Origin: Lytechinus pictus
Taxonomy: Eukaryota
Assembly: GCF_037042905.1 (NCBI RefSeq)
Contig: NC_087245.1
Coordinates: 32,304,001-32,368,000 of the forward strand
DNA: 64,000 nucleotides
Reading direction: 5' to 3'
Below the pieces are notes generated by a model, which saw nothing but the letters and a program-made list of their open reading frames with translations, had not been told where the DNA came from and searched no databases. Positions 5,029-41,260 of this stretch are shown in pieces; positions within the stretch are counted from its first letter, which is position 1, and each line of letters starts with the position of its first letter. A program made the position numbers and the translations under genes.

Positions 5029-7098
5029 GAGAGAGATACTAGTAATAGCAGAAAGAAAGCTGAATTAAAGGAACGACAATAACAAAGAGCAGATAAATAA
5101 AGAGGAGAGAGATAATTGTGAGAATAGACAGAGAACGGTGGGGATTGGCAGAAACAGTTAGTGAGGTATTACTACATCTTGTTAATATTGACAAAAACCA
5201 TAACTATGTATACTACATGTAAAGGAAATATACATTCAATGCTCTCTTCTACCCCCATTCAATTGATCTAGGGTCAACTTCAGAAACATATTATAATTAA
5301 AAAAAAGAATTGTAAAAACAAAATAAAGCTACTGAATACATTTAATTTGATTGGCTAACAGTAAACTTGTTTTAGAAATTGTCCATTTGGTATTATCATA
5401 AGTTTTTATGAAACGGGACCAAGGTGCTTCCATCTTGATTGGAGTTGTACATTTGACCGTACATTGCACAGTGAACACTTCAGTACATAAATACTTTGGA
5501 CATCAAATGACCATGGACTGACCATACAATGAATGCATTTCAAATCAATATAATTAATGTGAAAAGAATGATATTAAAAGTTTATGTTCAGCAGATCCAT
5601 GACCTTGCTTATAAACACTAATCATTAAACCACAATGTGGTATTCGAAGCTGGCTTGAACAATGACTTGACCAATATTGTGACCTTTGACCTCTGTGACC
5701 ATCATTTATTGATCAAGTATCTCTAAGCTCTCCTCCAGATTTAATGATGTAGGATAATCATGGATTTTACAAAAAGTTGGAGTGTATCTGTAGCAGTGCG
5801 ATTTGTGCTGGCCACATTTTATTTATTTATTTTTTTTTTTTTTGGGGGGGGGGGAGAGTTCCCATATGAAATATGTCTAGCAGTGTGTAATGATAACAAT
5901 AATGATTAATACTACTAATAATATGATGATGATGACGATAAAAATAATAAATAATAATAACAATATTAAAACAAAATAATTGATACACATTTAGTGAACA
6001 TGTGAATTTCAATTATAAAAACAATATTGAATCAAGGGAAAGTAATAAGGGAAATCTCGAACAAATAGAATACTCTTGATATTGTGGGATTATAATCAGA
6101 AACTAACTGAAATGTGAAACCTTTCAGTAATGCACATACATGCATGACTGATGCAGGCATAAGAAGTGACTTATCACTTGATCTACTATAGACACACTAG
6201 GACCACTGCTTGGTCTCATGTCATATGATCTTATACCAGATGACCAGCAACCCAAAACCAACAATAATAGCAAGAATATTTTGGTCTTCAAAAAGTACAA
6301 ATTAGAAAATTAGCTTATCTGAAAGAGTACCTCTTTTTCTTCATACTGCCAAAATTTGAAGTGGTAAGTAATCAAAAGATGAGATACAGGATTTCTAAAA
6401 AGTGTTTTTTTTTCTGGACAGCTTGGAAGTTTCATAGAGATTGCACAGAGGGTATATATCATGAATAAGTGAACCCAGAATCTTGTTTTCTCCTTATTCA
6501 TTGAACCTTTCACTGAATTTCTTCTACAAGTGTGGGTTATTATTAATTGATTTTGACAAGTTATGTAATTTAAAGCTTAGGAAGTGCTGATTCAAGCTCA
6601 ATAAAAAAATGCAATATTAATTTTGAGGGAATTATTATACTATCATTGTTTTTATAAGTTTGACACAGCAGTATCCACCATACTGTATCCAACAAGAAAT
6701 GTAATCAATGGCTCGAAGTGCTGAAAGACAAATACCGCCCTCTGTAGTCAATTTTGATCAATACCTTCATTGATCTTTGTATTATCTGCAATTCTACATG
6801 CATGTCTTTGCATACACACAACACAAAAAGTGAATTCCTATATAGTAAAATAATTTGCCGTTGAATTTAAGAATTATATCATCACTGGAGACCTTCAAAT
6901 CCAAACTGAAGTCTTATCTTTTTTAACAGTATTTAGTTATTGGCACTTCGACACTCATCCGAACTATCTCATTCTTTCTTTTCTTGTGCGCCTCGGAATA
7001 GAATATTTCTAGATAGATGGCGCTATATATGCCTCTTATTATTATAGCATTTGAACGAGAGAGCAGAATAACAAGGTATAAATGTGCATACCTCTTTA

Positions 7099-9246: not shown

Positions 9247-9872
9247 TAATAATGATAATAATAATACACTTCATTTATATAGCGCCTTTTCATCAGATAC
9301 AAAGCGCATCAAAGAAAGAAAGAATAACAGAAACACAAATAGGGAGTATAAAACATAAGAATAATAACTACAAAATTATGAACATAATATGGAAACCGTA
9401 CAGAAAATTAGAATAGGTAAGTTTTGAGACATTTCTTAAATGAGGAAAGTGTTGGGGAAGTCTTAAGTGAAGGCGGCAAGGAGTTCCATATTTTGGGGAC
9501 AATGGTAGAAAAGGCCCTATCACCTATTGGTTTAGCAGTACGAGGCACAAGAGTATTACTAGTCGCCGAGCGTGTGTTGTATTTGGATGTCTGTGCAAAG
9601 AGAAGATCAGCTAAGTAAGTTGGGGCTTGATTGTTAACACATTTATAAGTTAGAGTTAAGGTCATATGTTTGATACGATCATTAACATGGAGCCAATGGA
9701 GATCATTTATAAGAGGAGAGACATGGTCATACTTTGATTTACAGTGTATAAGCTTTGCTGCTTTATTTTGAAGGAGTTAAAGAGAGCTAAGGTCTTTAAG
9801 AGATATGCCATCGAGAAGTGAGTTACAATAATCTAAACGTGATAGGACTAGTGATCTTACAGCTGCATGACA
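9247..9872 (-). mobile_element. L2-clade LINE 3' fragment with (TAT)n tail
   Basis: On the minus strand: RLDYCNSLL, DLHWLHV, APTYLADLL, GDRAFS..P KIWNSLP..FKKCLKTYLF, then a 3' tail gcgctatataaat...tattattatt. Confidence 0.85.
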
Positions 9873-10048
9873 GGAATAATAATATTATGTTATACGGAGC
9901 CTGCTGAGGTGAACAGTTCATAAGAGTTAAAGTGGCTACGCTGGGTAAATGAGAATTATTACAGGCAATTATCCCGCTATTATCAAAAGGTTAAAATGTG
10001 AAGATTGTTAAAACTTACAAGAATTATGCAAGAGTGGAGACTTGGAAT

Positions 10049-13000
10049 TCATAATTTGCTCTTGAAGTCATCATAGGAGCCCTTCCTACCCTGTCCATCG
10101 GCAAATCGTCCAGCTCCTTTTACCGATTCCTTAGCGAGGACACCGATACCTGATCCACATTAGAGGAGGAAACAGAATGGAAAGGGTAGAAAAATTATGA
10201 TTATTATCATTATCATCATCAACATTGTTATGATTATCATTATCACTTTTATTTGTTTGGCATCACCTGTGCTTTGGAAGCCAAAAGCAAACTGAATCTC
10301 CTCCTGATGGGAGTTTGCAGCAATTGCCAAGTTATGCGTAATAAGGACTTTGTAACGGACAGACGGACAACGGACTGATGCCATTTGGACCCCTAAAGGC
10401 CCTTTACAATTGATCCCTGATCAGTTTGTGACCACTTGCAACAGTTTTTTCCTGGTGTTGCACAATCGATCACTACGTGCCTTGCAAGCTCTCGTAATCA
10501 CTGTGGGCCATCGCACGAACCCAAAATGATTGTGACAGGTTGCATTAGATGCGATCGAGTCACTCGCATCAGATTGTACTACTAGTCGTGCGATTGTTGC
10601 AGGTCTAGATGCGAGAGTTGGCAAGACTATGTAGTTGGCTGGAGGTCGTGCAACACTTTCATGTGCGTTAGCGACCTATGAAGACCGGTCTTGTGACGGG
10701 TACAATGATATTTTGACAATGAGACTGTTGCTCGATTGATCGCAACACAGCTTAGAACTGGGTACAGTACCTGGAGAAATAGTGAAGTTTTAATGACAAC
10801 CAAATGGTGGGTGGCAGTGTGGCAAGCAGAGAGGGAAAGAAAGTTTGTGTATATTTGAAGCATTACTATGACAATTTTGGCATCGTCCAGTGGCAGCAAA
10901 ATATGATATGACTTTAAAGTTATGACCTAAAGTTTGTACTAGAAACTTTGGAAGACCACAAGACGATTATTTAGAAAGTTCAGGATTTCTAGAATTATAG
11001 CTAAAATGATTCGTAAAACATTTAAATTTGTAGTATTAAGGCGATTTTTGAAAGAATCTTGGCAAATAATTTGTTTTCAAATAAAAATTAGAGACAAATC
11101 AAGCCTCTAAAATGTAAATTTTCACCGTACGGTAGCCTCCTAGGCGCCCGTATCTATCAGTCTTGATTTTCCTTGGAACATGGTGGTGTGGGAAGTCCCA
11201 TAACCGGCTCTCCGTTTTACATTGAAATCAAACTGATATATAATCATTCATAATCCTTTCATAATAACAATTCTTGTTGTAAGATTTATATTTTGTTTGC
11301 ATATTAATACTACATACAGTATTCATGAATATTAGTAGTGAATTTCAGCCAGTTTTAGATATGAGAATGTTAAAAAAAAAGCAATGGCGTGATTGACATT
11401 GATGATTGAGTCGGTGACTGAATTTGAAATTGAATAGAGTAAACACATCGCACTGACTACGCAATCTATTTCAGTGTGATTTTGATATTCAATAGTCTTT
11501 CCTCTGTACTTTTGTGTTAAATGCTACGTCATTGAAGGCATTTTCGGGCCCGAAATACCTGCTCATGCCAGGCCCCCTCACACTCAGCTCACATGCAAGG
11601 CTGGGGGGGGGGGGGGTGGCGTTAAGTCTGAAGCAATTTCCGATAAATTCTTTGAAAAACATATCTGCACTTATCAAAGTGTACATCTATTTTATGTATA
11701 ATTTAAAAAAGAGATCTTTGACACAGTGCGTTTCTTTCTCCTTTCCCCCATTCTCTCCCTCTTTCATAAAAATGCATGGGGCCTAAGGCAAGCTAAGGCA
11801 GGGGGGGGGGGGGGGTTAAGGGCCCTTCTTCAAGATAGATCCATTCGGGAAAGGAAACCTAGTCTTAACCCCACTGACCTCACACATGTATTTTCTCACT
11901 GATATCATGCACTTCGAGTCTTAATCAACATGACTTCACCAAACATTAAACAAATGCAAAGAGATTGATCTGGATACAATATTTGGTGTCATTAAGGTTG
12001 TCGCACCATCCTCTGATTAAGTCATTTTTTGTTTAATAGCTTCATAAGCATTCTGTTCACGCTCTTGTTGTAAGGTTTGCATATATGTATGTGTTGATTG
12101 GTAGATTTTCGGTAATTATGGTCATGCATGGCTTACTTCCGGTGTGTTTTGTTGAGGTGAATGTTGATTGGTTGTAATTTTTTGTTTCCCTTCCATACCC
12201 TATCCTTTTCTTGTTATGGAGTTCTTCCCAAGCTTTCTAGAAAGGCAGATCATGCAAAACTTAACTAGTAGGCTTGATTGACGACATGCAAAAAGTTTTG
12301 GACAAAAGAAGGCAAATCAATCTTTTAATAATCATGGATTTCAAGAAGGCCTTCGATGTAGTCCCTCACAATTGACTGCTTCGTAAGCTCAACCGTCTTG
12401 GTATCCGTATTTTCTTAAAAAAACACCTTCAGCGGGTACTCTTGGAAGGGATTTCATCAGATCCATTCCCTGTGAAGTCAGGCGTCCCGCAAGGCACGGT
12501 GTTGGGTCCGTTACTATTTCTCACCTATGCCAACAACTTACCTAGGAACATCTCATCTAGAATACGCCTGTTCGTGGATGACTGCATCCTATACTGTCAG
12601 ACTGAAACCCCTTCTGAACAACTCTTACTCCAAGCCGATATTGATAAGCTACCAGACAAGGAACATCAATGGCATATGGGCTACAACATCTCCAAATGTT
12701 TCATCATGACTGTTACTCACAAGACAAGACCACTTTGGCTTAGCTATTCCATGGGAAGTAACTTGCTAAGTAAAGTTGACCATCATCCATATCTTGGCAT
12801 CGAGTTAGCATCGGACTTTTCCTGGACCTTTCCTGGACCATGCACATACCTGTAAACCAAATAACCAACAAAGCCTACCGTCAGCTTGGCCTTCTAAAAA
12901 GATATCTGTACGGCTGTGATACACAAACGAAAGCCATAGCTAGTACGTCCTCTCCTGGAATATTGTCATGCTGTCTGGGATCCTTGCCAGCAACAAACAA

Positions 13001-16000
13001 GCCATGGAGAAAGTCCAGAGACGTGCTGCAAGATCCGCATGCAACGAGTACAGCAGGACTGCTAGTGTCACAAGCACGATGAAGCGCCTGGGATGGGGAA
13101 GCCTTGAAGAAAGTAGATCCAAAGCCCGCCTATTGATCTACAAGGAAAGTCAAGGATTAATTCCCAGTAACATTAAGCATCTCTTGAGAATCAACATGGC
13201 TCAGAGTAAGCCAACAACAAGGCACTTTTCAAAGAAGTTTGTTAACCACCTTATAAGGGCAAATAAGAGATGCTACCAGCAATCTCTATACCCAAGAACA
13301 ATCCCCCAATTGGAATAAACTCCCAGATACTGTAAGGGAGGCTACACCAAATTCAAAGAACTTGAAAGAATCGAAATACATTAAGTACACATCCGACTTA
13401 ATGCACTGTTGCCAAAAATGTATGGGATAGCCACACCAGGGTTCTGTTTCATAAAGACTTGTTATAGTAAACAAATGCACAATTTCTATAACAAATTTAC
13501 CATCAGCCAATCAGAAAGAAGGATTTCAGTAGCTTTTAACTGTTACTGCAAAGTTGTTATTGTAACAAGTTTTATGAAACGGGGCCCAGGCATTTGTACA
13601 TCAAACCATCTAGATCCAGCGTTTACAATCTGTCCTGCTGTGCCTTACCAACTCCACCAATTTTATTTGTTTTTGATTGGCACTCATGGCACATCTGTAT
13701 TTTTTACACATGCAGGGGGGGGGGGGCATGTACATCTGTTCATCATTTACAATGTTTATTTTGATTATCTGGTTAATTTGTTTAGGGTGATTCAATACAG
13801 GAAACTTCTTTGCTCTACGCGGAATCTTGATACCGCAGAATCTGCATAATTCTGTGAGATTTTGGGTGTGTTGGTCCATGCCCACTCACAATGACGCACA
13901 CACAAACACCCTTGGGGGCTTACAAACAAGGGTATATTCAAAGCTCAATATCAGAAAAATTTGAATGTAACACTTGTAATTGTTAATGAATAAATTGTGA
14001 CTAATGACCTGAATAATATGAAAAACCATGAAATTAGGAGGGGATAAATGGCAGGGTCTAGTTATGATTTTACGTTTTGAAGTGATAAAATGATACCTAA
14101 AATGTACAAGAGCACCTTCGTAACTCAGGAGGATGCGTGAATCCGGGGAAGATGGCTTTGTTTCAAATCTTATTGATTCATTATGGCATCGATAATTCGA
14201 AAATTGACACAACCTAGTTTCAGGACTGTCCCTGATTTACATATCGTGGCCCAAAGTCACCTTCTAATTCTGAGCCTGCAGCTCTCGTGATAATCAGGTG
14301 TTATTGGTGAGCGCCATCTCGCAACGTAATGGTGAACTAGGCCAAGATCGCGCGATGCAGTAACTCTCCATTCATTGCGTGCACGTAGGTGATGGGTAGA
14401 GGGGTAGCTAGGTTTGGTGTAAAAATGGAATAATGTTATGTTTTTTGTTACTAATGAAACCATTCCTTGTAGAAACTGTAAGAAACAGATGGATGGAAAA
14501 AGGAAAACTCTGGGATGAAATAGAATAACATGTTCATGTTTTTGTTTTTATAAACAGTCAATTTGTAACCATGTTAATGCTGTATATACAGTGTAACTCA
14601 CCTCTTTCAAACTCATATTTGAAGGCCTCTTCGAAACCTTGACTATCATAAGTATTGCGTAGTGTAGCGTGTCTGTCTCCTAGCATGGCTCTTTGGTCTG
14701 GGAAAGCAGTCAAGAGCTTGGCAAGTTTCTTGGCTTCAGTTAAAGCTGTCAGGATAAACAAAATGAAAAGCTGTAAGATAGTATACAAATAATGAATGTT
14801 TATGAGTGCAATAGACAGAATAATTCATGAGGTGAAAGATGAAAAGATCCATTCAACTCGGCTATGCCTCATTGAATGGATCATTCATTTCATCTTTCAC
14901 CGAATGACGTATTCTGTCCATTGCACGAATGAAGGAACATTCATTATTTGGTTTATATGACACTTAAAACTAGATTATTTTTCAATTTCGATGCAAAATA
15001 TGATCATGCAGTGCGAACTTGGTCTGTTGATTGTCAAGTACAATGCGCATGTGCAATGGACAAAATCGTATGGATCCAAAATTGCACGATGAATGGATCC
15101 TAAATTGCAAGGTCGATGACGTCATTGTAAAATGGTCCGAATGATCGATATCAAACAACCAATCAAATGCCAAGGATCTACCTAGTATATATGACACCTA
15201 GTGGTGTCATATAATAGAAAATATATGGCACTGGGTAAAGAGATGCTCAAAATGGTTGACTTGCAGTCTACTGTATATCGAGAGCAAATGTAAGAATGAA
15301 CAGAAAGAAAATTTAAACATAGTAAAACAGAAGCAGACATGAAGAAACAATGCAAAAGATTCTGAGCTCTGATTTTTAATCCATTATAACAGGAAATGGA
15401 GGCACAGTATCAGTCGCTTAAATCTTAAAATCACTAAAATAGTCAACAGTACATGCAAATTACTTTTGTCCGCATAGAATATGATCTGTAAGCTCTATTG
15501 TTGCCATTTATTCACTCCCTGGGAGCATTCTAACAAGAGTTTCCAAACATAATTGCTAGGTAATATAAGATAAACTAGAAATCTGACGTGTCCAAAGGAC
15601 ACAGATGCCCCCGCTTAACGCAATCAGAAATTCATTCAATATGATTGAACTTAATATTGTGCAGAAACCAATATGCATATATATAATGAACAAATTTAGA
15701 CCTCTGACCTAAAGACTCACCCTTTCAATAATAATCTCTGACAGAAGATATGACAGTCAGGTCATTTGATGTGACCTGACTGTATTTTTGTGTCATTTAC
15801 CCAGACACCAAACATTTTTAAAATCTGGTGAATATTTCCAAAGTTATCATGCGGAAACCAAATTGCATATATAATGAGCTGTGACCTTTGACCTGCGGAC
15901 TCCGAATTCGAAATTAGCCTGTATTTTGGTGTCATCTACCTACACACCAAATTTTTTTTTAATCCGTTGAATATTTCATAAGTTATCATGCGGAAACCAA

Positions 16001-19000
16001 CTCGCATATTTAATGAGCTGTGACCTTTGACCTGCGGACTCCGGATTCGAACTAAGCCTCTATCAGTCAGTCCGCAAGCCCCTGTGTTAATGAGCAAGAT
16101 TTATCCAAGTCCTCTCGTGGCTGAATTCATGTCCCTGCAAAATCTCGTGAATTGTGAGACTTTCTTTCTCAAAGAATTTAACCACTTTCTCCTTGAGTAA
16201 CATTGATTATTTTTGTACCATGGGCAAGAGTAAATGTTACCCTTTTATAGTAGACCGGCCAAAAGTCAAAAAGTGCTCTAGATAAGGATTCGACGGCAAA
16301 ATTTGTTAATGCTTGGCATCCCAGCTAAAAGTCTTGCAAAAATACCCAGGAATAGCGTACGGCCGGATGCCAAGCGCAATTTTGCGTGAAAGTATAATTT
16401 TTAGCGTAAAAACTGAAAGAATGTCGAAAATCACGCATTTTGATATTTTGACGGATTATCATCATATTTTTGATTATCTTTGATATGAAATTATTTTTAT
16501 TCAGAGTTTCAAATTATAAGTCTCATAAATATGCATTTCAAATTTGAATATTACACACACACATATGGCACAGGGAAACATAAAACCGCGATTTCCTCAA
16601 AATAAAAGTTTGTGAAAACTATCAATAGTTTAAAGTTTTTTACGCAACTTAAATTCTTCGATTTAACTGCGTTTATCCATCAAATGTATAGTAAATGTCC
16701 TAATGTCACAAATATTAAAAGAATTTTCAAGTAAGATGGAAGATATCTCACTTTATGTTATCCGAAAGGAGACAATGTGCATTTTACCAGGTGCGCATTT
16801 TGAAAGAAAAATTGAAAATACCGTACATTATGTACATAATTACATGTATAAGTACATACTAAAGCGAGTTTTTAATTACATGTATAAGTGCATTCTAAAG
16901 CGAGTTTTTAATTGGATAGCACAATTTGTCAATTCTTTGCATCCCAGCTAAAAGTCTTGCGGAAATCCTGAGGAATAACGTACGGGCGGATGCCAAGTGC
17001 ACTTTTGCGTGAAAGTATCATTTTTTGCGTAAAATTTGAAAGACTGTCGAAAATCACGCATTTTGATATTTTGACGGATTATCATCATATTTTTGGTTAT
17101 CTTTGATATGGAATTATTTTTATTCAGAGTTTTAAATTATAAGTCTCATAAATATGCATTTCAATTTGGAATATTACACACACATATATGGCAATATGAA
17201 ATATAAAATCGTGATTTACTAAAAATAATAGTTTGTGAAAACTATCAATAGTATAATGTTTGTGTTCCGCATCTCAATTTCGTCAAATTTAGCGCTAACC
17301 GATTAAATACATAATAATTGTTGTAATGGCACATATAGTGAAAACAAATGTTGAAATAAGATGCAAGATATATCATTTCATGTTATATATGCGAAAGATA
17401 ACAATGTACATTTATCGGATGCGCATTTCTGATAAAATACAAACAGCGCACAATATTACATCTATATTGCACATACCGATATTAATCAGTGCGATACTCA
17501 TCATGATATTATATAGGATTATGTTTACTTTTGTAGAGTTCGATCTTCTTGCTACTTCAATACCTATTTTTGTCTCGCCTGCATGCATAGCAGAGCAGGA
17601 CTAAAGGAGCCACTTTTCCGGCGGAGGCGACGGTAGTTTTGATATAACAGCGTCATATCAACCTTGAAATCTTAACCAAGGTTACGTTTTCGAAATTTCG
17701 TTATAACTTTGAACGTATAGAAAAAAAATAATGACACTTATAACAGTATTCAGGTATTACTGATCGTCTTGCACAAGTTTTAGATCACATGATTAAGGTC
17801 AAAGGTCATTTAGAGTCACTGAACTTTGGCCATATGGGGGTATTTTTTCTTAATGTCATCATAACTTTTGAATTTTATTGATCCAGTTCATGTTTAAACT
17901 TGAATATAAGGGTATTAAAGTATCATGGATCATTTTGCACAAATTTCAGTTCACATGATCAAGGTTATACGTCATTTAGGTTCGATGAGCTTATTATTTT
18001 ATTATCACATGAATGGCGCTTTTGTGAATAATTATTAGTTTCAGTTGTTTCTAATGTTCTGCTGCTATAATTATTATGTGAAAATATGAATAATAAATGT
18101 TATTTGGTCTTTTGCATTGCAAGTTATCATTTTCATTTAATTCATTTTGCTTCATTACAGTTTTCGCGTTTGCTATTATCATAGGTCCATGCTGTTATGT
18201 ATCGTAGTCTAAGACGGGGGCCGGACAGCCTGACCTTGGGCAGCCCTGGACATACATGTATGTATTGCCAATGCCAATTTGGGAAATGCAATCTATAAAT
18301 TACAATATCTACGCTGGACGCTGGTCATTAGCCTTTAGATTTGTTTGTCATAATGGTCGTGCGACTGCATTTCCCAACATGGCAATACATGTGATGAAAT
18401 GAGCTTTAAGAATTAAAATGTGAACTTAAAGAACCTACTCTTTTAGTATTTCAAACATCATTCTCCACATATAAATTTTTTTAGCTCATGCAAATGGTTA
18501 TTGACCGATCTATTTTAATTTCTGGTCTAATGAACTGTTCAATTAACTGATCAAAGAGACCGCAGTTGCATGAAACAACGCCTTCTACATTCTAAAATTG
18601 GGAAAATGAGCTACGGACACTGACATAAGCCTTTTGATAGAAGATGCATGGAAGTGAGGGGGAGGGGAAACTTGCCCCCCCCCCCCAAAAATAAAAAAAA
18701 AAAAAAAAAAAAAAATCAAGAAAAGGCATAAAACAACAGAAGCAAAATAATAGAAAGCTTGTTGGGGAGGGGGTCATTTAGTTATTTATTTATTTATTCT
18801 TTTATATATATATTATACATATTTATTAATTCATTATAACCTCAATTGAATGTAAATATTGTAATTTTAACCATTTTTTTAAATTAATAAACACAAATTC
18901 TTCCCTAAATTAAGGCTTTTGCTTAAAAGACTTGGTCAGTCAGCTCACTCACCAGCAGCGTAGCTAGGATTTTGTCAGCAGAGGAGCACGGGGGCGGGGC

Positions 19001-22000
19001 TTGGTATTTTGCAGGGGGTGCCAAAATAGATTGATTCATCAAGTATTTATTATTAAGTACATATTAGCTTTATTCTCACAAGCACGATTAAGTATCTGAC
19101 TAGGCCCGTTTGAATAATGCGAGCGCGAAGCGCAAGCATTTTTATAATATGCCATGAAATTTAGAGCTGAAAGTTAGAAAGTTACACAATTCGTAAGTGT
19201 AATCATGAACATGTAATGTAATGTTAAAAATTTCAGAAATTTTTTATATTCTGACGTGAAAACGGAGCATTTAATACATATTAAAAAAAAATGATATATA
19301 GGCTATTGATGCGAGCGCGAAACGCAATCTGAATTTTATATTCCAATCCGTAAACTGGACATTTTGATGACGTTTTGAAATAAAGAATGTTATGTATCTG
19401 TTTTTAAAAAAATCCAGCACAAGCCGAGCTGGCTTCTTTTTTTTTTTTATTAGAAACGAAACATTCTAAGGCGCGATAGCTCGATCGGTAGTGAGGGGGT
19501 TTCGGATTCCGGTGGCCTGGGTTCGATTCCCACTTGGCGCGCTAGTGCCAAGTAAGGCATTTAAATGGTAGTAAGGCATTTTAATCATATAGGTCCCTCG
19601 GAGAGTACCTTAAGCCATCGGTCATCTGGTTGCTTGCTTAGAAGCGTTCACGCTTTCTTAGCAAATGAGGTAAAACAAAAATCGTCAAATCATGAACAAT
19701 GATCAGTATTTAATTATAGCATTTGATGCAAGCGAGAAGCGTGAACTGAAAATGTCGAATTAAACGAAGGATTTTAAAAAAGTTTTTAATGTAGAAAAAG
19801 ATGAATATCTTACTTTAATAACAAAAACGTTGGCGCAAAAGCGTGAGCTTAAATTGGGAGAGACTAAGAGCTAAAGATTGGACATACAATATTCACATTT
19901 ATTTAATAATGGACTGCATGCGACTGGATTTTGAGAAGTTGACACTTCAAGCAAGGTTTGTTTTTTAACAGATAGCAAGTTGTTTATCTCATATATTAAT
20001 GCCAGCGCGAAGCTCGAGTCGAAAATTTATTTGCCATATTTTTGTAATCCCGTGTAGGGTGCCTATCTCGCTAAACCACAATAAAATATACGCTCGAATC
20101 GCAAGCAGAATACTGGGGTATATTACAGCGGCGTACCCAGGATTTTCCAAAGGGGGGGGGCAATTTTTTTGGAGGATATTTCGTCCGCGAAAAAAAATTA
20201 CAAGCAAAAAAAAAAAGGTTTTTAACCACAAATAAAGGATTTTGTACCAGAAAAAAAAAATCGTCAGGGGGGGGGGCAGGGGTACGTCCCCTGCATGAGT
20301 TGTGACTCGTCGGGGGGGCAGTCTGCCCCCCCCTTTACGCTAGTGGTATATTATCTTGAAAACAGGATACTTTCAGCTCCATCCTTTCGGATACTACACA
20401 TGACCTTAGGCAGCGGGGGAGGGGGGGGGGGAGAGGCAGTTGCGGCCAGAAATTTTGTAACTCGTTTTAAGTATGTACTTATTCATGTAATTATGTTAAT
20501 AATTTACAGATCGTCAATTTTACATTCAAAATGCCCCCCCCCCCCTCCCCACTAAATTTTGCATGCCCCCTTTCGGAAAATATTTCATCTTACTTGAAAA
20601 TTCTTTGAATATTTGTGACATTCGAAACGATCGATATTCAATAGATGAACCAATTTAAATCGAAGAAGTTAAGTTGTAAAAAAAAACTTAGAACTATTGA
20701 TAGTGTTCACAAACTTCTATTTTGAGTAAATCACGATTTTTTATGTCATATTGCCATATATGTGTGTGTAATATTCCAAATTGAAAAACATATTTAGTAG
20801 ACTTATAATTTGTAACTCTAAATAAAAATAATTCCATATCAAAGATAATCAAAAATATGATGATAATCCGTCAAAATATCAAAATGCGTGATTTTCGACA
20901 GTCTTTCAGATTTCACGCTAAAAATGATACTTTCACGCAAAAGTGCACTTGGCATCCGCCCGTACGTTATTCCTCAGTATTTCCGCAAGAATTTGAGCTG
21001 GGATGCAAAGAATTGACAAATTGTGCTATTCAATTAAAAACTCGCTTTAGAATGCACTTATACACGTAATTAAAAACTCGCTTTAGTATGTACTTATACA
21101 TGTAATTATGTACATAATGTACGGTATTTTCAATTTTTCTTTCAAAATGCGCACCTGGTAAAATGCACATTGTCTCCTTTCGGATAACATAAAGTGAGAT
21201 ATCTTCCATCTTACTTGAAAATTCTTTTAATATTTATGACATTAGGACATTTACTATACATTTGATGGATAAACGCAGTTAAATCGAAGAATTTAAGTTG
21301 CGTAAAAAATTTTAAACTATTGATAGTTTTCACAAACTTTTATTTTGAGGAAATCGCGGTTTTATGTTTCCCTGTGCCATATGTGTGTGTGTAATATTCA
21401 AATTTGAAATGCATATTTATGAGACTTATAATTTGAAACTCTGAATAAAAATAATTGCATATCAAAGATAATCAAAAATATTAAAATAATCCGTCAAAAT
21501 ATCAAAATGCGTGATTTTCGACATTCTTTCAGATTTTACGCTAAAAATGACACTTTCACGCAAAATTGCGCTTGGCATCCGGCCGTACGCGATTGCTGGG
21601 TATTTTTGCAAGACTATTAGCTGGGGTGCCAAGCATTAGCAAGCATTAACAAATTTTGCCGTCCAAAGTATAAAAAATCGTTTTGGCCGGTCTACTATTT
21701 ATATTGGTCATTTCTTTTGAATGAAATATTTTGATAAATATGTGAATTTTTTACCTGAAAAGATGCATCAAACAGAATTTTCTTCCTCTGTTTTCACTTG
21801 CAAATTGTGCAACATTTTGTGTTTTAGGCACCAACATTATTTATATCATCAGAAAGCTCAAACTCTATACTTTCTTACAATGTCACTCTTGATATGTGGC
21901 ATCTTTTAGATGGGTCAGCAGCCAGTTATTTCCATCAAGATGCAAGACGAGATTTCTGAAATTTCTGAGTAATATAAAATCAAGAGTTCTGATTGGCTGA

Positions 22001-25000
22001 ATACTGTTTTCAAAACAAACAGGCGCGGGTAATTTGAAGAGATTACCACATGGTGAGTGTGACCTTGCAGAGGCCCAGTGTGGGGAACATTGGAATTTGC
22101 GTGGGTGTGTGGTCTGTATGACCAATCAGAGCGCAGTATTCTTGTTTTTGAGCTGCAAAATGTACTTGGCCTATGAAAAGCTGGCTGCTGACCCATCTAA
22201 AATACATCTTCTTATAAAAATTATATCACATTAAAGCTTAGATCTTCAGCTTTATCATGATTTAAAAATCATTTGTGCCCAAACAGAAATTAAGTGTGAA
22301 AACAACAACTTTTGTTGCATGAAAAAAAATATTTTGTTTCCTGTTTAGATCAAAAGTTTTTCCTATATTACAACATTCTTTTAAAAATCCAAACACATGA
22401 CCTAAAAGAATGATTCTTCTTCTTTACAAAGATACCAAAAACATGAAATTTGGTCAATATTTAGAGCAGCAATGGCCGAATAAAAAGAGGTGTTTTGGTT
22501 CGCACCAAGCTCATTAACTATGCAAAAACCCTCTTGTCATGAATATCACTTGGATAAAAGAAGCTACTTTTTCAGGGCTTGCGGACTGACTGCTATTTTG
22601 GTGTCATCTACCTACACACCAAATTTTTTTTAATCCGTTGAATACTTCGTAAGTTATCATGCGGATACCAACTCAAATATTTAATGAACTGTGACCTTTG
22701 ACCTGCGGACTCCGAATTCAAACTTAGCCTGTATTTTGGTGTCATCTACCTACACACCAAATTTTTCAAAAATCCATTGCATATTTTTCGAGTTATTGCA
22801 CGGAAACCAAGTGGGGGGACGGACGGAAGGACAGGGGCAACGCTTAATGCCCCCTCCGGACTTTGTCTGCGGGGGCATGAAAATCGCTAATATGATAATC
22901 CTACACACAAACTTCTTTGTTTGAATAGAATATGTTCTGTATTGTGTTCTTTTATAGCAATATGCCCTTTCTCGACTCCCTGGAAAGTGGCAAGGTGTGG
23001 ATTAATGCCTTGCCAGAGGACGCTAGGCCTTCATGAAATTACTCCCAGTGTATATTACCTTGTCCATCTGGTACTACTCTGTTGACTAGTCCCATACTGA
23101 GAGCCTCATCAGCATCTACCGGTCTGCCAGTCAAGATCAGGTCCAGGGCTCTTGATAGACCAATTATCTTTGGTAGTCTGACTGTACAGCCATCAATAAG
23201 GGGAACGCCTAAAACGAAAACATAAATAATTTGTTTATGAGAAGGATATAATCAAACGACAATGAGGACCTAATTGAGTTAGAGGTGGGTAAGGGAGGGG
23301 GGCATATCATTTAATCTCTCTTTTTCTCTCCCCTTTTTAAATTTTTGCTCTTTTTTCTGGTCATGTGATCTGATACATGTATAGGTACGCCATTGTACTT
23401 GAGAAAATCAATGAAAAAATATCCATCATACTGCTTCACTGTGCTGCATAAACAGCAACACAGTTATGAAATATTCATGATGAATGGATTCAAACCATGA
23501 TTTAAAAACAACGTACATGTAGGTAATTTCTGATCAATGTCACCATCATGAAAATACAAAATTAAGAATTGTCATAAAATATTCATGAGAATTCCTTCCC
23601 AATGCTGAATTTGTAAATAAGAGAACTCCTTACCGAATCTTCTATTGAAGACGCCCATGATTGAACTCTTCTCCGCTACTCTCAGATCACATATGAGAGC
23701 TAACTCCATCCCTCCAGCAACTGCATAGCCGCTCACGGCTCCAATCACAGGCTTACTGAACTGCATGGAAGTAGGGCCCTAGGAAAAAAAATGTTTTCAT
23801 TCACAAATATTTCTTATCCTCCTACTACTCTTCTAAATACAGAGTAAAATATCATAACATGATAAATCATCAAAATATGAAATGCCTACCCAAACTATCT
23901 AAATTTTTATAAGACTTTCACACAGAGTTGCTTACAAGGAAATACAAAAAAATCAATACAAGTTTTGGGTGGATCATATGGCAGAATGTTGTCCTCATTT
24001 AAAGGCTGTCTATGGAAAAACCCGGTCGAGGAGATTTGTCAAATGCTGCTGTCTTGAATTGCATGCAAAGCTCCATTAACTAGTTGCCTAACCCAACCTG
24101 ATAGTCTGTGTACACTGCCTATTAGAAATGACAAATTCCATATTCAAAGGGTTAACAGATAAAATGCCACATATCTGTAAATTGTTATTAATCTGGAATG
24201 ACTGGAGTATATTGAGAAATACCAATTTGTTACTTGGCTGAGAGAAAGACGGTAGGTCGCACATGCGCTGTGATTTCAATTCCTGTGCGCCTGGCGGTAG
24301 CGGTAGCTCAAGCGCACACTACCTGAAAAGTACAATGCGCATGAGAATACTACCTGACCAACAATGAACAGGGATACATGTCATGTAAACCATAACACCC
24401 TCCTGCAAGCTGGCGCCAAATTGGATATTCTAATAATTTGCCAATAATGCTGTAAATTCAAAAGTCTCTTTACCATAGGACCTGGCTGTAGGTAGTCGGG
24501 AACCGTTTCTGGGTCTTGCTTGGCTAAATTTTTCAAGTCCCATCCTGCACAGAAATTTCCACCTGAGAGAGAAATGATAATGCTAAGATGTCATTACTGT
24601 ATTAAACATCATAAGAGAAGTTTGGAATTACAGTGTTTATAGAAAAAAGTAATCCAATTTCGAGGTTTGATATTAAGAGATTTTAGAATTTTTTATTTCA
24701 AATGTCATAAAATATGAAAGAGCAGCTCCTCAGATTGTATAAATACACTACTTACTCTCTGACACCAATCATACTCAATTAATTGATGTTGAAGACATCA
24801 GGTACAAATTCCATTTCCTTGAAGTTTCAGCAAGCAGAATTGAGATGAAAATTTTAGATGCCTCAGCCGAGTGGTTTCTTTGTCGATGAACATGAGGAGT
24901 TTGAATAGCTCTCTCATGGGCTATGACTACGTTAATGAATGCAAGGCTGAAAAAGGTAGCTATTCCTCACTGACTGATAAGTTTACATTATCTTCAGGGC

Positions 25001-28000
25001 AATTCCGGAAAATAGTCGGGCTTTTTGTACATCCGACCCCCATTTTTCTCAGGTTTTACTTCACTTCATAAACTGACCTATTCACGATCATTTGAGAGCA
25101 TTACATTACTGTCGTAAGAACCAGAAATCAGAGACAGAAAATTTCATGAAGGTCTCACATACATGGGGTTGGACGTACATATTTTATGGAATTGCCATTT
25201 AACAGAGCTGCTGTTCAAAATCAGTATTTTGGTGAGGAAATGCAGTATTTTCAAAGAAATACCACAGGACAACACATAAAATTTCAGATATCGGTATTTT
25301 GTATAAAACCATCAGTATTTGTCAGTAATACTGACAATCAGAACTAGTTGGCATCTCTGCTTTAAGATAATTGGCTCATACTTGACCTGTTGCCAAATAA
25401 TAAATATAAATGAACACTTTGCTTTTATTCTTTGAATAGGATAACAAATATACAAAATAACCTATATAATCATGCTCATGCCAGTGATCTTAAAAGCCCT
25501 ATTCCGGTTTACAGCCATCGACCTTCATCTGCTCAAGCGCAAATTTTAATTACGAAATAGTTTTATATTTTAATACCTTTCCCGTATAAGACAGCGACAC
25601 TCAGTTCAGGGTCCTCCTCAAATCGACAGAATGCCACTTGTAGCTGTTTGGCTGTCTCTGGGTCGACTGCATTCCTAACGTCAGGTCTGTTTATCCCTAT
25701 CAGGCATATCTTATCCTCTCTCTCCACCTCTACCCTCCTCAAAGATCCTATCAATGGTGAAAAAATGATCACAAACGATTGATACAGGAGACAAGTTCAA
25801 AACAACTCTGAAAACTTACTTATTCAATTCAATAAAGTGAACTCAGTATTCTTTTTCTTTATTCTGAAGCACATAGAGAAATGATGACAATTATAATGAA
25901 AAATAAACTGATGTTGATGATGAAAATAGTAAACCGTACAGTAGACTCAGCATACATGTAGGTTGACCTTCCATAAAAGGTTGAACAATTCCGTAACTTG
26001 AAGAATTATTTAATTTAGTTTGTGCAAGATTGTGTTGTTTACATCTTCTAAGTCGAATTTTGTCTCATACCGTCTTACAGTGGTTTTCAAATTTATCCCG
26101 GTGCTGTTGGAAGACAGCGATACTGCTATAAACCCGCTATAAATGCATTAGCAGTAGGAAAGTTATCCCGCTACAGTCCCAGGATAAATTTCATGTACTG
26201 CATTCGCACTGCAGTGGGTGATTTTAGTAACCTCCGGAACAAACACATGCAAGCTTGTGGAGTGACTCAGATATGACCGGAAACACACTGATCTTAATAT
26301 ACAGATCAGTGCCAGAAACACATCTCTGCTCGCTGGATCCTTGATATCAACTTTTTAAAACTGCTTCATTTATTACTTATTTATTGGCTTCTAGTCAGAA
26401 TTTTGTCATTATTTGAAGTGAAAAATATTGTTATCTCATCAAATTTAACATTCACATAGTAACAAAATTGACTTGAATCCATCGAAGGTATTCTAGTTAG
26501 GAAGCCTTTTGGGAAAGGGGTTTAGTAAGATTGGAGCTAACTCCGTGGTTTGTGGATAAAGATATGACTAACTTGTCCAGGTGTTGAGAAATGGGCCCCT
26601 GCATATCAAAGACAAAAAGCAATGATAAACAGAAGCGGATCTAGAGGGGGGGTTGGGGGGGTTGCAACCCCCCCAAAAAAAAAAATCCGGGGACCATTTT
26701 TTAAAATCTTATCTTTTTTTTTAAACTTGTAATTTTATTTTATTCTATTTCTATGTATTTATTTCATTTATAATTATTATTATTATTTCTTTTTGGGAGT
26801 ATTAGGCTAACAGTGCTTATTCCAAGGTCCCCAATTCTTTGTATCTGTGTTGTTAACTGGCCTTACATTGCAGGAAAATGCAACTTAATTTTACAAATTT
26901 TCATGGGGGTTAATTTGGCAACGACCTCTATACCAAAAAGAGTGGTGTTTTAGATGCAAGAAAACGCCATTTTCACACACAGATTTTCAAAAATTTTCCC
27001 TACTGTGGGAGGGGGGACACCCCCCTCCCACACCCTCCCCCCTCGCTCGCTCCGCTCGCTTGGACTCGGTCGCTACGCTCCCTCGCATACCACCCCAACC
27101 CCCCCCTTTATAAAAAGCTGGATCCGCCCCTGATAAAGAATGCATTTAGATGTATGTGTCTGCATTGTTAAGTTTTGTAGGATGATATGTTTTCAAAAAA
27201 TGTAGACATTTGCAAAATGGAAGAAAATAAATATTTATTTGAATTGAAAAAATAGCTTATTAGCTTTCACTTGGTATAACTTTTTCAAACTCAGTTTGCG
27301 CTTCAAATGGGGTCTTAAAAAAACTGTTGCCAGCTTTGTTGGAAAACCACAATTGTAGGCTCTGCCAAAAAATGGTGAAACCTCACTCTCAACTCCAGAT
27401 CAAGGCAGACTCTGACTTAAGAGATACTGATCTGACGGGGACATCACGATAGACCGCGGGTCCGATAGACCGCGGGTCCGTTAGACCGCGGGTCCGATAG
27501 ACCGCGGGTCCGATAGTCCGCGGGTCCGATAGACCGCGGGTCCGATAGTCCGCAGTGTGTGTAAAATTATGATCAGATATATCAAATGTCATCGAGAGGT
27601 CCAAAGGTCAAATGATACAAGGCCATGGGGTTCTATCAGGTGCGGATCCATGGGGGGGGGGGGGCCGAGGGGGAACTGCCTCACCCCCCAACCCCCAGCT
27701 CAAAAAAGAGGGGGGAAGATGGGAAAAGAGAATACAAAAGAGAGTAAGAAGGAGAAAGGAAGAGAAGAAAAAAAGAGAAGAAAAAGGGGAAAGGAAAGAC
27801 AAAGAAAATGGGAGAAGAAAAGGGGAAAGAAGAGAAAAAAGAGAGGAGGGAAAAGGAAGAGAAGAAAAGAAAGGAGAAAGGGAAAGAAGAAAAGAAAGGA
27901 GAAAGGAAAAGGAGGAAAAAGAAGAAAAAAAGAGGAAGGAAGAGAAGAATATTTGAATAGAGGAAGATGGGAAGAAAGATAAGAAAAGAGAGAGAGAGGA

Positions 28001-31000
28001 AGAGGGGAAAAGAAGAGAAGAAAGAGAGAGGAAGGGGGAGGGAGAGAAGAAGAAAAAAGATTAAAAGAAAAAAAAGGGGGAAAGGAAAGAAAAAGGGAGA
28101 AGTAAAGGGGGAAAGATAAAAAAGTGGAAGAGGGAAAAGAAAGAAAAGAAAAGAACGGAGTAAGGAAAAGGGGGAAAAGAAGAAGAAAAAAAGAGGAAGG
28201 AAGAGAATAATATTTAAAGAGAGAGGAAGATGGGAAAAGAGAAGAAAAAAAGAGAGAGTAAGGGGGAGGAAGAGAAGAAAAACGAGAAAAGAGAGAGGAA
28301 GAGGGAAAGAAAAGACAGAAAAAAGAGAAGAAAAGGGGGAAAGAAAAGATGGGGGAAAAGGAGAAGAAAAGGGGGAAAGAAAAGATGGGGGAAAAGGAGA
28401 AGAAAAGGGGGAAAGGAAGACAAGAAATGAGAGAAGAAAAGGGGAAAATAAAGAGAAGAAAAAGAGAGAGAGAGGAGGAAAAGAAGAGAAGAAGAAAAGG
28501 GAAGAGGGAGAGGGGGAAAGAAAGAGAGAAAGAAAGAGAAAGGAAGGAAGGGGAATGAGGATAAGAGAAAGAAAAAAAAAGAAAGAAAAGGAGATGGGAA
28601 ACGGAAGAGGGATGTTGACCTGGACGTCGATTTGATGGCGCCAAAATGACGTTCGAACTATGGGGCGCCGAACTGATGTTTGAACTGGGAGGGGGGGGGG
28701 CGCCAAATTGATGTTCGAACTAGGGGAGCGCTAATTTGAATATTGACCATAATGCGACAAATACATGTTTCAGAGAGGGGGAGGGAGGGCAAAGTTATAT
28801 TTCACATGGGGGCGCCAAGTTTATGTTCAATCGAGGGCGCCAAATTGACCTTGAACTTAGGGGGCTTCATGCAAATTCATTTTCGACCGGGGGCGCAACA
28901 TTGCCCGTATTGCCTGTTTATAGTGAAATATATGTCCTGACCAAAAAACTTAAATTAATGCGGCTAAATTAAAATATCCCGTTTTTACGATAACAGACAA
29001 AAACAATGTTTTCGAGTTTTAAGTCTGTTTAGCGAGATGGATACCCTGTTGAGGGTCACAAAAAAGGGTTATTATCAAATTCAGCTCGCGCTACGCGCTC
29101 GCAATATTTGATTAATGAGGTATGCATCCTCTGCATCAATCCCACATGTAAGTGTTAGTGTTTTTCAAGTCAACATACATAGGCCGATCCAGGGGGCAAA
29201 GATTTTGCCCCCCCCCCCATGGTGGCGCAAAAAAGGGGTAAGAAACAGAAAAAAAAGAAGAGAAAAAGGACAAGCAATTAGAATAAGAATTATACCTTAG
29301 TCCTTCTTAAGTCAGTATATAAAAAAATTGAGCTCGCGCTTCGCGCTGGCATAAATAAATTGTTCAGTTATATACGCGCATCCCGACCTTACAGTTTTTT
29401 ATGCGAACGAGAAGCACAAGCTGAAAATATTTGATATTCTAACCTGACAACTGAAAATGTATTTTTCATTTCATCATTAAAAAAGTTTTCAGCTAGCGCT
29501 TCGCGGTCGCATTAATTTCTTAACAGATATGCTTCGTGTTCATCATAACAACTACTAACATAGGCGGATCAAGGCGGCCCGAGGGCAACCCCCCCCCCCC
29601 CCCTATTGACAGAGCAAATAAAATGGGAAAAACGGGGAAATAAAAAAGGGGGAAAGAAAGGAGAAAAAAGAAGACGAAACATAAAAGGAGGAAGACGAGT
29701 GAATGAAATAAGGTAAGGAGAAGACTTGGAAAACAATTTTTGAAAATATTTAAAGGACAAGTCCACCCCACCAAAAATTTGATTTGAATAAAAAGAGAAA
29801 AATCTAACAAGCATAACACTGAAAATTTCATCAAAATCGGATGTAAAATAAGAAAGTTATGACATTTTAAAGTTTCGCTTCATTTCACAAAAGAGTTATA
29901 TGCACATCCCGGTCGGTATGCAAATGAGGGAACTGATGACATCACTCACTCACTATTTCTTTTGTATTTTATTATGAGAATTATGAAATATTTTGATTTT
30001 CTCGTCATTGTCATGTGAAATGAAGTTCCATTCCTCCCTGAATACGTGGAATTCCATTATTTTAACATTTTGTGGTTCAGGCAAGGAGGTCCTAATCGTC
30101 AAATTCGTAAAAATTGAAATAATGTATAATTCAAACAATAAAAAACAAAAGAAATAGTGAGTGAGTGACATCATCGACTCTCTAATTTGGATGTAACTGG
30201 CTCGTTCATATAACTATTTTCTTAAAAATAAGCGAAACTTTGAAATGTCATAACTTTCTTATTTTGCATCCGATTTTGATGAAATTTTCAGCATTGTGTT
30301 TGTTTGATTTTTCTCTAATGATTCAAATCAACATTTTGTTGGGGTGGACTTGACCTTTAATGTCACTATATTAAAGTTTCGCTCGCGCATCGCGCTCGCA
30401 TTGCCTGTTCGATGAGATACATATCTTGCTCAATATGCTGATATGTAGTTTAAAATATCAAGTTTTGATATCAATATACAAAACATAATTCAGCTCGGAC
30501 ATCGATCTTTCATTATTTTGTTTTATTTACCAATTTATGTTTTTAAGTGCTCTGGAAAATAAATGTCCGTTTTATAGTTTTTTGTATTTCATATAAGATT
30601 CTCTAAATATACCTTTTCAGGTGTCTCGATTGTAAAAAAAAATAACAAAGGCCTATGAGCTAGCGCTGTGCGCTCGCATTTTGATTGGTGAGTTATGTAT
30701 ACCTATTTATTAATTCTATAACAATTAAACTACTTAAATCCCCCCATTAAAAAATTCCGGATCGCGATTTGCGCTCGCATTATTTGCTAAAAATATATCA
30801 ACCAAAGAATCCTATTCATGATTACAAAAATACTTGAAATATCAGGTTTTCAGGCCTCATGTATTGTCAACAAATTTCACACACTCATTAGGCTTAACAG
30901 ATTAATAAATACGAAATAAAATTTGTATGAATTCATAAAAACTAAATTGTCCCTTTTTCAGAAATAAATATTGACAAGTTTTAGGAAAAGAAATAGAAGA

Positions 31001-40700: not shown

Positions 40701-41260
40701 TGATGACGATTGTGATGATGATAGTGATGATGATAATGACGATTATGATGATGATTGCGATGATGATGATAGTGATGATTATGATGGAGGATCTGCTCGT
40801 GATCCCAAGCAATTCAGATTTACAGGCATTTCACTCATAAATGACAACTGTCAATTACTGTCAATTGAATTGTTTTTCTATGATCTTATTTTGATTTTGT
40901 TAGGTATTATGTGAATTCTTCAAGCCAAAGAGAGTGGTCTTCCTATCAGATGTAGAGGGCATATTCACCAAGCCTCCGACCAACCCTGAAGCCAAGTTCC
41001 TTCCCAGGATCCATGTTAGAAAAGATGGCAGTGTAGCAACCAGCATAGCAACCCGACAGCTAGACCATGATGTCACGGGGGGCATCAAGGCAAAGATAGC
41101 ATCGGCGTGCAGCATCGTCTCGCAGAGTGGTGGCGCTATACCAGTGTTTGTTTGTAAGCTTGGGGAACATTCAGCAGAGCTTGCCTGCTTGCGAGGCGAC
41201 AGGAGCGATGCTTATACAGGGACTATCATTGAAGCTGCAGATAACGTTCCAGTTTTATGA
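37764..41260 (+). CDS. IPK: Isopentenyl phosphate kinase-like protein (amino-acid-kinase family), 5 exons, ~280 aa if the exon-2 frameshift is corrected
   Basis: Exons 37764-37903, 39010-39128, 39866-39925, 40484-40648, 40904-41260 (GT-AG). Motifs: IVKVGGSAITKK, LVHGAG/SFGH, PVLHGD, ILSGD, FLSDVEGIF, DVTGGIKAK. Exon 2 ends in phase 1 while exon 3 needs phase 0 (see findings). Confidence 0.85.
40659..40786 (+). repeat. (GAT)n microsatellite in IPK intron 4
   Basis: Imperfect gat/gac repeat starting just after the donor site. Confidence 0.9.

What the first reader, a model, noticed from the sequence alone, without database searches (positions are those of the whole stretch)
13600..14400. RAG1-N-terminal/Chapaev-like zinc-finger relic hidden in an intron
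Seen: the minus-strand ORF HTQNLTELCRFCG..KKFPV..PKQINQIIKINIVNDEQMYMP..CMCKKYRCAM..HSRTDCKRW. From memory, human RAG1 non-core reads [58 protein letters not shown], with the same order and spacing. The Y and W sit at Cys positions, one substitution away, and a poly-C run has inflated the Pro stretch. Known: this domain is shared by RAG1/RAG1L transposons and Chapaev transposases in invertebrate deuterostomes. The ORF is cut at 13590 by a MITE and a LINE. A CpG-rich promoter-like patch and a candidate CAC terminus (cacgcaatgaatgg on the minus strand, ~14381) lie upstream.
Basis: partly seen in the sequence, partly recalled or inferred. Interest (0 to 1): 0.7.

Follow-up and report, generated by a model that had tools for sequence, protein, structure and literature searches.

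The report
Dead Chapaev-like transposon fragment in intron
This is the broken front end of an old jumping gene whose zinc-finger head is related to the start of the immune recombinase RAG1; it lies in an intron, was split by another mobile element, and is most likely an ordinary fossil of a known transposon type.

Summary
The 91-codon minus-strand frame (13610-13885) is real and encodes a decayed Chapa/RAG1 N-terminal zinc-finger (NZD) domain. A profile from 17 Chapa domains fetched from metagenome contigs scores it 30.2 bits (E 6e-8; next segment 5.8), and that profile hits the solved RAG1 NZD at E 3.5e-15. Six of eight zinc ligands survive. It lies in the last intron of an enoyl-CoA hydratase gene, on the host's strand. 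Corrections: the domain is cut at about 13617 by the 3' tail of a LINE (the MITE sits inside that LINE), so the Trp is probably a junction product; the conserved His-Pro survives in the neighbouring frame. One contig from another run joins 13617 to 12069 without the LINE, and the far side carries a weak match to a helix seen in Chapaev transposases. No RING, catalytic core, RAG2-like gene, paired TIR or TSD was detected; the CAC end is unproven. Best reading: a dead 5' fragment of a Chapaev-type transposon (about 0.7), not RAG1L (about 0.12). Known kind, low interest.

The parts
13617..13879 (-). Decayed Chapa/NZD double zinc-finger coding region from the likely ATG (13879) to the LINE junction. 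Ligand positions: His6, Cys14, Cys17, Cys60, His82, Cys87 intact; Tyr63 and Trp90 at the two other Cys positions
   Evidence: ligand set from bioRxiv 10.64898/2026.01.24.700457
13715..13736 (-). Locally frameshifted stretch: D-V-H in the neighbouring frame (13736-13728) next to a 12-base homopolymer (13715-13726)
   Evidence: the two-frameshift reading is inference
12249..13616 (+). 5'-truncated, degenerate non-LTR retrotransposon (LINE) inserted against the domain's strand; 3' tail ends at about 13616-13619; 5' edge uncertain within about 12225-12249
   Evidence: Pfam RVT_1 E 9.4e-13; frames; junctions; joint
13440..13586 (.). High-copy MITE with terminal inverted repeats, flanked by CAG on both sides, inserted in the LINE's 3' untranslated end
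   Evidence: very high depth and many loose ends
11978..12248 (-). Probable continuation of the same first coding exon beyond the LINE: basic linker, then a helix like the one before the intron in Chapaev transposases (best match 12046-11999), then GT at 11977; 4 stops, no RING detected
   Evidence: weak; DNA link
13880..14391 (-). Probable 5' non-coding part of the element, with candidate CAC termini at 14381 and 14391 and a mildly CpG-rich patch; termini unproven
   Evidence: distance fits relatives; no partner end; chance rate
10150..14601 (-). Last intron of the host enoyl-CoA hydratase gene, holding the whole relic
14602..14745 (-). Host exon upstream of the relic
   Evidence: a contig of run X1 covers 14600-14747 with 0 differences
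10049..10149 (-). Coding part of the host's terminal exon
   Evidence: assignment to the same gene rests on frame continuity and recalled family sequence, Pfam gave no hit
23059..23208 (-). Host exon with the enoyl-CoA hydratase match
   Evidence: Pfam ECH_1 E 1.3e-8; splice sites read

Best explanation
A Chapaev-type cut-and-paste DNA transposon (or an already deleted derivative) inserted into the last intron of an enoyl-CoA hydratase gene and died there. What remains is about 0.5 kb of 5' leader and the first coding exon: a type I Chapa/NZD domain (a C4 finger interlocked with an H-H-C-C finger), a basic linker and a helix that precedes an intron in relatives. Shown: the domain homology, the intron position, the LINE and MITE, and the failure to detect RING or core. 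Inferred: the order of events (transposon, then LINE into the last Cys codon, then MITE into the LINE), the loss of the 3' part, and that the piece is now inert and removed with the intron. In the ancestor the domain was presumably the non-catalytic zinc-bound head of the transposase; its role is not established even in RAG1.
For: Domain: (hhalign 95.5%, E 1.6e-8). The profile's members are Chapaev-like: 10 of 14 scanned ORFs pass the RAG1_imp_bd cut-off, 2 of 14 carry DUF1280, several carry RING. P0013 (named Nematostella) matches Chapaev-2_NV of the published alignment by eye. By eye the ORF is closest to Chapaev-1/2_BF: 18 residues between the second Cys pair and the His against about 19-21 in those and about 29 in the four RAG1L rows (counted by eye). 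No PDB RAG1 chain was hit at E up to 10. Beyond the LINE the Chapaev helix profile has its best window hit at 12046-11999 in three versions (8.6, 8.3, 9.7 bits), on the right strand, followed by GT where relatives have their intron. PMRAG1L shows no such helix by eye. One contig joins 13617 to 12069 without the LINE. Relatives start with CAC 513-556 nt before the Cys-Arg codons; the window has CAC at 535 and 545.
Against: The helix match is weak: E 0.1-0.25 for the window; only 1 of 10 pairwise tests was under 1% of shuffles and 3 of 10 under 5%; with L018 the true chunk only tied for fourth of 1242. The joining contig is 1 contig in 1 of 4 runs at 80% likeness, its middle is unknown, and it resumes at 12069, not near 12248. 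No invertebrate RAG1L sequence could be scored. The Cys-to-His spacing ranges 13-35 among the fetched homologs, so it separates weakly. The tree does not place the ORF (end branch 5.27, no supported group). No TIR pair, TSD or core was found. One homolog, L027, carries the domain on a P-element-type transposase, so the domain alone does not name the family.
Confidence: 0.7

Rival explanations
1. Dead 5' fragment of a RAG1L/ProtoRAG-type (TransibSU) transposon.
For: Same domain with type I ligand layout. Echinoderm RAG1L lacks RING, as this relic seems to. A RAG1L-RAG2L unit sits in an intron in another sea urchin.
Against: Shorter Cys-to-His spacing than the four RAG1L rows. The piece beyond the LINE resembles Chapaev, not PMRAG1L, by eye and hits no RAG chain in PDB. 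No Pfam family was found in 12 intron frames (low sensitivity, since even the weak RAG1_imp_bd hit drops out in the long frame). Candidate ends do not resemble the starfish TIR beyond CAC.
Confidence: 0.12
2. Fragment of another transposon that carries a Chapa-like domain, such as the P-element-type transposase in L027, or a free-standing fragment unrelated to the piece beyond the LINE.
For: L027 pairs the domain with TNP-like RNase H and is the ORF's highest-identity row, 27% over 82 columns. The profile from L027 and L030 scores 19.5 bits.
Against: Two Chapaev-like subgroup profiles score higher, 27.8 and 22.4 bits. The post-LINE piece does not match P0010 beyond chance, 109 of 1000 shuffles.
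Confidence: 0.1
3. Exapted piece: the open frame or its CpG-rich leader is used by the host as an alternative exon, small protein or intronic promoter.
For: 91 codons remain open, the ATG stands at the family's usual start, and it is on the host's strand. Contigs of organism B also cover 13714-14286.
Against: Two of eight ligands are lost, the His-Pro motif is out of frame, and a LINE cuts the last ligand. Differences to organism B look similar inside and outside the relic: 37 other letters over 13861-14135, 26 over 14453-14747, 23 over 10002-10303. The model has pLDDT 51.
Confidence: 0.04
4. Chance resemblance, or a ZAD (zf-AD) host gene fragment.
For: No direct hit in three large searches. 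ESM Atlas top hits were other zinc fingers, under 0.9. The family shares its first finger with ZAD.
Against: Profile score and shuffle controls; 24 non-Chapa loci carrying the same first motif score at most 9.4 bits. The N-terminal His and C-terminal His-x4-Cys of the second finger are present, and ZAD has a single zinc site. No zf-AD hit for the ORF.
Confidence: 0.04

Closest known systems
Chapaev transposons with type I Chapa domain (Chapaev-1/2_BF, Chapaev-1/2_NV; CMC group; PMC4411706, PMC4079192, bioRxiv 10.64898/2026.01.24.700457)
   Same: N-terminal Chapa domain starting a few residues after Met, without the vertebrate H2 insert; similar ligand spacing; weak match to the helix before the intron; CAC at the usual distance upstream.
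   Different: No RING/C2H2 between domain and helix (about 53 codons, against about 200 residues in RING-bearing relatives and about 100 in RING-less L034, counted); no core, paired TIR or TSD detected; disabled and split by a LINE.
[quoted passage not shown]
   Same: Same order of eight ligand positions; the family profile hits it at E 3.5e-15; the ORF hits PF12560 weakly.
   Different: Lacks the roughly 20-residue H2 insert; two ligands lost; no direct phmmer hit; not part of a recombinase gene.
RAG1L of echinoderm TransibSU / ProtoRAG transposons
   Same: Chapa/NZD domain without H2; no RING after it in echinoderm forms; intronic fossils are described.
   Different: Shorter second half of the domain; downstream piece unlike PMRAG1L by eye; no RAG1 core, RAG2L, RSS-like TIR or 5-bp TSD found.
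ZAD / zf-AD domain
   Same: The first (C4) finger is structurally alike: top rows for a family member's model, Z 3.1-4.9.
   Different: ZAD has one zinc site; the ORF keeps ligands of the second finger and has no zf-AD hit.

Membership tests
Chapa/NZD domain | Profile similarity to Chapa domains | tested here: met
   30.2 bits, E 5.9e-8 in the window; shuffle controls; hhalign 95.5%. Members were selected with a pattern that shares the first motif, so the motif-free control (12.1 bits, 1 of 2000) is the fair minimum.
Chapa/NZD domain | Eight zinc ligands (C4 plus H-H-C-C) | tested here: inconclusive
   6 of 8 intact; Tyr and Trp at the others, as expected for a decayed copy.
Chapa/NZD domain | Double zinc-finger fold | tested here: inconclusive
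   Model of the ORF pLDDT 51, not searched. Model of member L036 pLDDT 76.5 gave only ZAD rows.
Chapaev transposon | N-terminal Chapa domain | tested here: met
Chapaev transposon | DDE transposase core with CMC motifs (DUF1280 type) | tested here: not met
   Core profile: best window hit 7.2 bits, E 0.21, with stops and no catalytic motif; no Pfam family in 12 intron frames. Hence filed as a probable Chapaev-derived fragment, not as a member.
Chapaev transposon | Terminal inverted repeats CAC...GTG | tested here: inconclusive
   CAC at 14381 and 14391 fit the relatives' distance, but a 44-nt stretch has a CAC 38% of the time; best partner 9 of 15 identical; relatives begin CACGG or CACTG, the window does not.
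Chapaev transposon | 3-4 bp target site duplication | tested here: inconclusive
   Of 12 x 27 CAC pairs, 2 had a 4-bp duplication, with only 5-6 of 15 identical; no 3' end is known.
Chapaev transposon | RING finger after Chapa (some subgroups only) | tested here: not met
   No RING by Pfam or tblastn beyond the LINE; RING-less forms exist (L034).
Chapaev transposon | Dispersed copies in the genome | not testable with these tools
   No genome held; no second copy in the window; two different contigs of run X10 overlap 13865-14135 and may be alleles or paralogues.
RAG1L / ProtoRAG transposon | RAG1-type catalytic core | tested here: not met
   No Pfam family in 12 intron frames and no RAG chain hit by the post-LINE piece; only the intron was scanned, at low sensitivity.
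RAG1L / ProtoRAG transposon | Convergent RAG2L gene | tested here: not met
   No Kelch or PHD family in the intron frames; the rest of the window was not scanned this way.
RAG1L / ProtoRAG transposon | RSS-like TIRs with 5-bp TSD | tested here: inconclusive
   No pair with a 5-bp duplication among 12 x 27 CAC pairs; the 3' end may be lost.
RAG1L / ProtoRAG transposon | Domain groups with RAG1L rather than Chapaev | not testable with these tools
   No invertebrate RAG1L protein was returned by any tool; compared by eye only.

The most novel reading that the evidence does not exclude
The relic marks an undescribed RING-less lineage in an echinoderm that pairs a short type I NZD with a Chapaev-style first exon, standing between Chapaev and RAG1L; a LINE-free copy, hinted at by the contig in run X10, could still be intact and would show how the RAG1 N-terminal domain moved between the two transposase families.
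Probability: 0.1. Interest if true: 0.55.

Novelty: new member of a known kind. Interest (0 to 1): 0.2.

Why it matters
As it stands it matters little: Chapa-domain transposons and their fossils are described across invertebrates, and the Chapa-RAG1 link is in print (PMC4411706; bioRxiv 10.64898/2026.01.24.700457). It is a usable seed for finding a diverged family (at most 29% identical to the 17 fetched domains) that the single-sequence searches here missed. [quoted passage not shown]

Tried and rejected
Whole-genome copy search: no genome held. Direct searches with the ORF: PDB sequences, no RAG1 at E up to 10; word-based protein searches empty; 1.84 billion representatives gave one hit, a repetitive 1153-aa protein with 13 weak stretches, rejected as an artefact; ESM Atlas gave only leads under 0.9, RAG1 clusters at 0.78, ranks 14 and 17. 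Pattern scan of viral contigs: 0 matches. Sequencing runs: no RNA holder listed; the two organism A runs laid (X1, X5) give little or no cover of the ORF, which is no evidence on expression. Depth was not used as a copy number. The table of differences was cut (477 rows not shown), so the Tyr codon and the homopolymer could not be checked in other copies. By-eye resemblance of 11887-11831 to the second Chapaev exon: not supported by its profile; best hit 7.7 bits elsewhere, reversed control 8.2. Core-profile hit at 10640-10422: rejected as chance. An alternative frame giving a Cys-x2-Cys motif at 13626-13703 scored 5.8 bits and was treated as coincidence. Structure: ORF model too poor to search; PDB 21wb did not appear in either fold search of the L036 model, which is no evidence on the fold. 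Tree: uninformative. Earlier findings: none by sequence or by the full word list. Literature: 5 searches; none of the listed titles or abstract openings describes this locus; Repbase was not available.

Full report
Observation. The frame exists as stated: 13610..13885 on the minus strand, 91 residues, ATG at 13879. Alone it finds almost nothing. Pfam gives one hit, RAG1_imp_bd, 14.3 bits, E 0.032, under the 23.3 cut-off. PDB sequences, two word-based searches and 1.84 billion representatives gave no true relative.

Getting real relatives. A degenerate DNA pattern for the two Cys motifs found 46 metagenome loci. My script recovered the match in 42 of 46. I judged 18 to be Chapa domains by eye, dropped L042 as a duplicate of L025, and kept the other 24 as controls. 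Of 14 such ORFs scanned, 10 pass the RAG1_imp_bd cut-off, 2 carry DUF1280 and 1 a P-element-type core. Their alignment hits the solved RAG1 N-terminal domain (21wb, E 3.5e-15), full-length RAG1 (E 2.3e-11) and, far weaker, a ZAD (E 3.5e-4). It also retrieved 15 proteins from 5167 candidates, 3 named Nematostella; P0013 matches Chapaev-2_NV of the published alignment by eye.

The domain is real. The 17-member profile scores the ORF 30.2 bits, E 5.9e-8, best of 2921 segments, next 5.8. Since the pattern shares the first motif with the ORF, I controlled for it: 0 of 2000 shuffles with that motif kept reach the score, the 24 control loci reach 9.4 at most, and residues 18-89 alone give 12.1 bits with 1 of 2000 shuffles as high. 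Against the mouse ligands (H102, C110, C113, C175, C178, H206, C210, C213) the ORF keeps His6, Cys14, Cys17, Cys60, His82 and Cys87; Tyr63 and Trp90 stand at the other two. A Leu (TTG) stands where the family has Trp. The family's His-Pro is read in the neighbouring frame at 13736-13728; using it lifts 29.0 to 38.2 bits. I infer two compensating frameshifts around the 12-base homopolymer, so the long open frame is partly luck.

Setting. The host is an enoyl-CoA hydratase gene on the same strand (ECH_1, E 1.3e-8); the relic lies in its last intron, 10150-14601. That the organism is a sea urchin comes from unchecked earlier notes on this genome; I did not test it.

Breakpoint. The MITE (13440-13586) has CAG on both sides and lies within the 3' end of a truncated LINE (RVT_1, E 9.4e-13). 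The LINE's tail runs to about 13616-13619; that such a tail is typical of some LINEs is recalled, not tested. In run X10 one contig joins 13617 to 12069, skipping the LINE (4 of 11 listed runs laid, 80% likeness, 63 letters on the shorter side, middle unknown). Three bases are shared by both LINE junctions (13617-13619 and 12246-12248); a join there would keep the frame and give Cys in place of Trp. This is inference: LINE homology may reach about 12225, so the 5' edge is uncertain.

Beyond the LINE. That frame has 4 stops in 103 codons. A profile of the helix that precedes the intron in Chapaev proteins has its best window hit there, at 12046-11999: 8.6, 8.3 and 9.7 bits in three versions, E 0.1-0.25, reversed-window controls 4.1 at most. 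A GT follows where relatives splice. Against this: 1 of 10 pairwise tests was under 1% of shuffles, 3 of 10 under 5%, and with L018 the chunk tied for fourth of 1242. The match is weak; it gains weight from strand, place, frame and the joining contig. No RING lies between domain and helix, and no second exon or core was detected.

Ends. Three related loci share an edge at CACGG 551-556 nt before the Cys-Arg codons, two more at CACTG 513 and 521 nt. The window has CAC at 535 (14381) and 545 (14391). But a 44-nt stretch holds a CAC 38% of the time, the following bases differ, and no partner end or convincing TSD was found among 12 x 27 pairs. The CpG patch is within the top 5% of 200-nt windows, no more.

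Which family. It works like the head of a Chapaev transposase and is best called a Chapaev-derived fragment; it is not filed as a member because core and paired ends were not found. Chapaev is preferred to RAG1L on spacing (18 residues against about 19-21 in Chapaev-BF and about 29 in RAG1L, by eye), on the helix, and on the lack of such a helix in PMRAG1L by eye. No RAG1L protein could be scored, the tree is uninformative, and L027 shows the domain on another transposase type. Odds: Chapaev-type fossil 0.70, RAG1L fossil 0.12, other carrier 0.10, exapted 0.04, chance or ZAD 0.04.

Papers seen. PMC4411706: parts 1-2 of 4 of the text, supplements 3 and 5 whole, passages of 1 and 2. bioRxiv 10.64898/2026.01.24.700457: parts 1-3 of 6; its alignments and supplements were not seen and bear on the type I and family assignment. 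bioRxiv 10.1101/100735: part 1 of 4. PMC9885083: part 1 of 6. PMC7204232, PMC3014272, PMC4079192: passages. Kapitonov and Jurka 2007 was not seen, only cited by these.

Verdict. A correct and sharp-eyed identification of a known domain in a dead transposon fragment. New member of a known kind; interest 0.2.

Noticed in passing
L027:2180-4036 (+); P0010: A Chapa/ZAD-like N-terminal domain on a P-element-type transposase (TNP-like RNase H, E 1.4e-22). Papers read here name only Chapaev and RAG1/RAG1L as steady carriers of the domain. It lacks the first His and last Cys pair, so it may be a single-finger form.
   Followed up: partly
L034:444-3086 (+) and L010:666-3497 (+): Long single-frame Chapaev-like transposases with DUF1280; L010 has a RING, L034 has none, so RING loss occurs among close relatives.
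   Followed up: partly
window 16296-21642: A 5.3-kb element with 964-nt inverted arms (96%), each holding a 623-nt internal repeat.
   Followed up: no
window 27436-34078: A 6.6-kb unit bounded by inverted arrays of a 16-nt repeat, holding a purine-rich tract and 13 copies of a 37-nt motif.
   Followed up: no
window 61230-62072 (+): Fragments of a P-element-type transposase (TNP-like RNase H C, E 3.6e-7) with a 180-nt internal duplication.
   Followed up: partly
window 43570-44340 (+): Open frames that look like a hAT-type transposase piece by eye (recalled motif); Pfam gave no hit for 43570-43884.
   Followed up: partly
window 40349-41260 (+) and 48193-56355 (-): Host exons: amino-acid-kinase family (E 1.1e-10) and a gamma-tubulin complex component (E 0.0038, below cut-off).
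   Followed up: partly
window 10996-11133: 138 bases absent from contigs in both organism B runs: an indel between the window and that organism.
   Followed up: no
window 5325-5426, 49115-49160, 58431-58577: Further copies of the MITE found at 13440-13586.
   Followed up: partly
window 9408-9776 (-): A frame resembling the C-terminal end of a second LINE by eye; no Pfam hit.
   Followed up: partly
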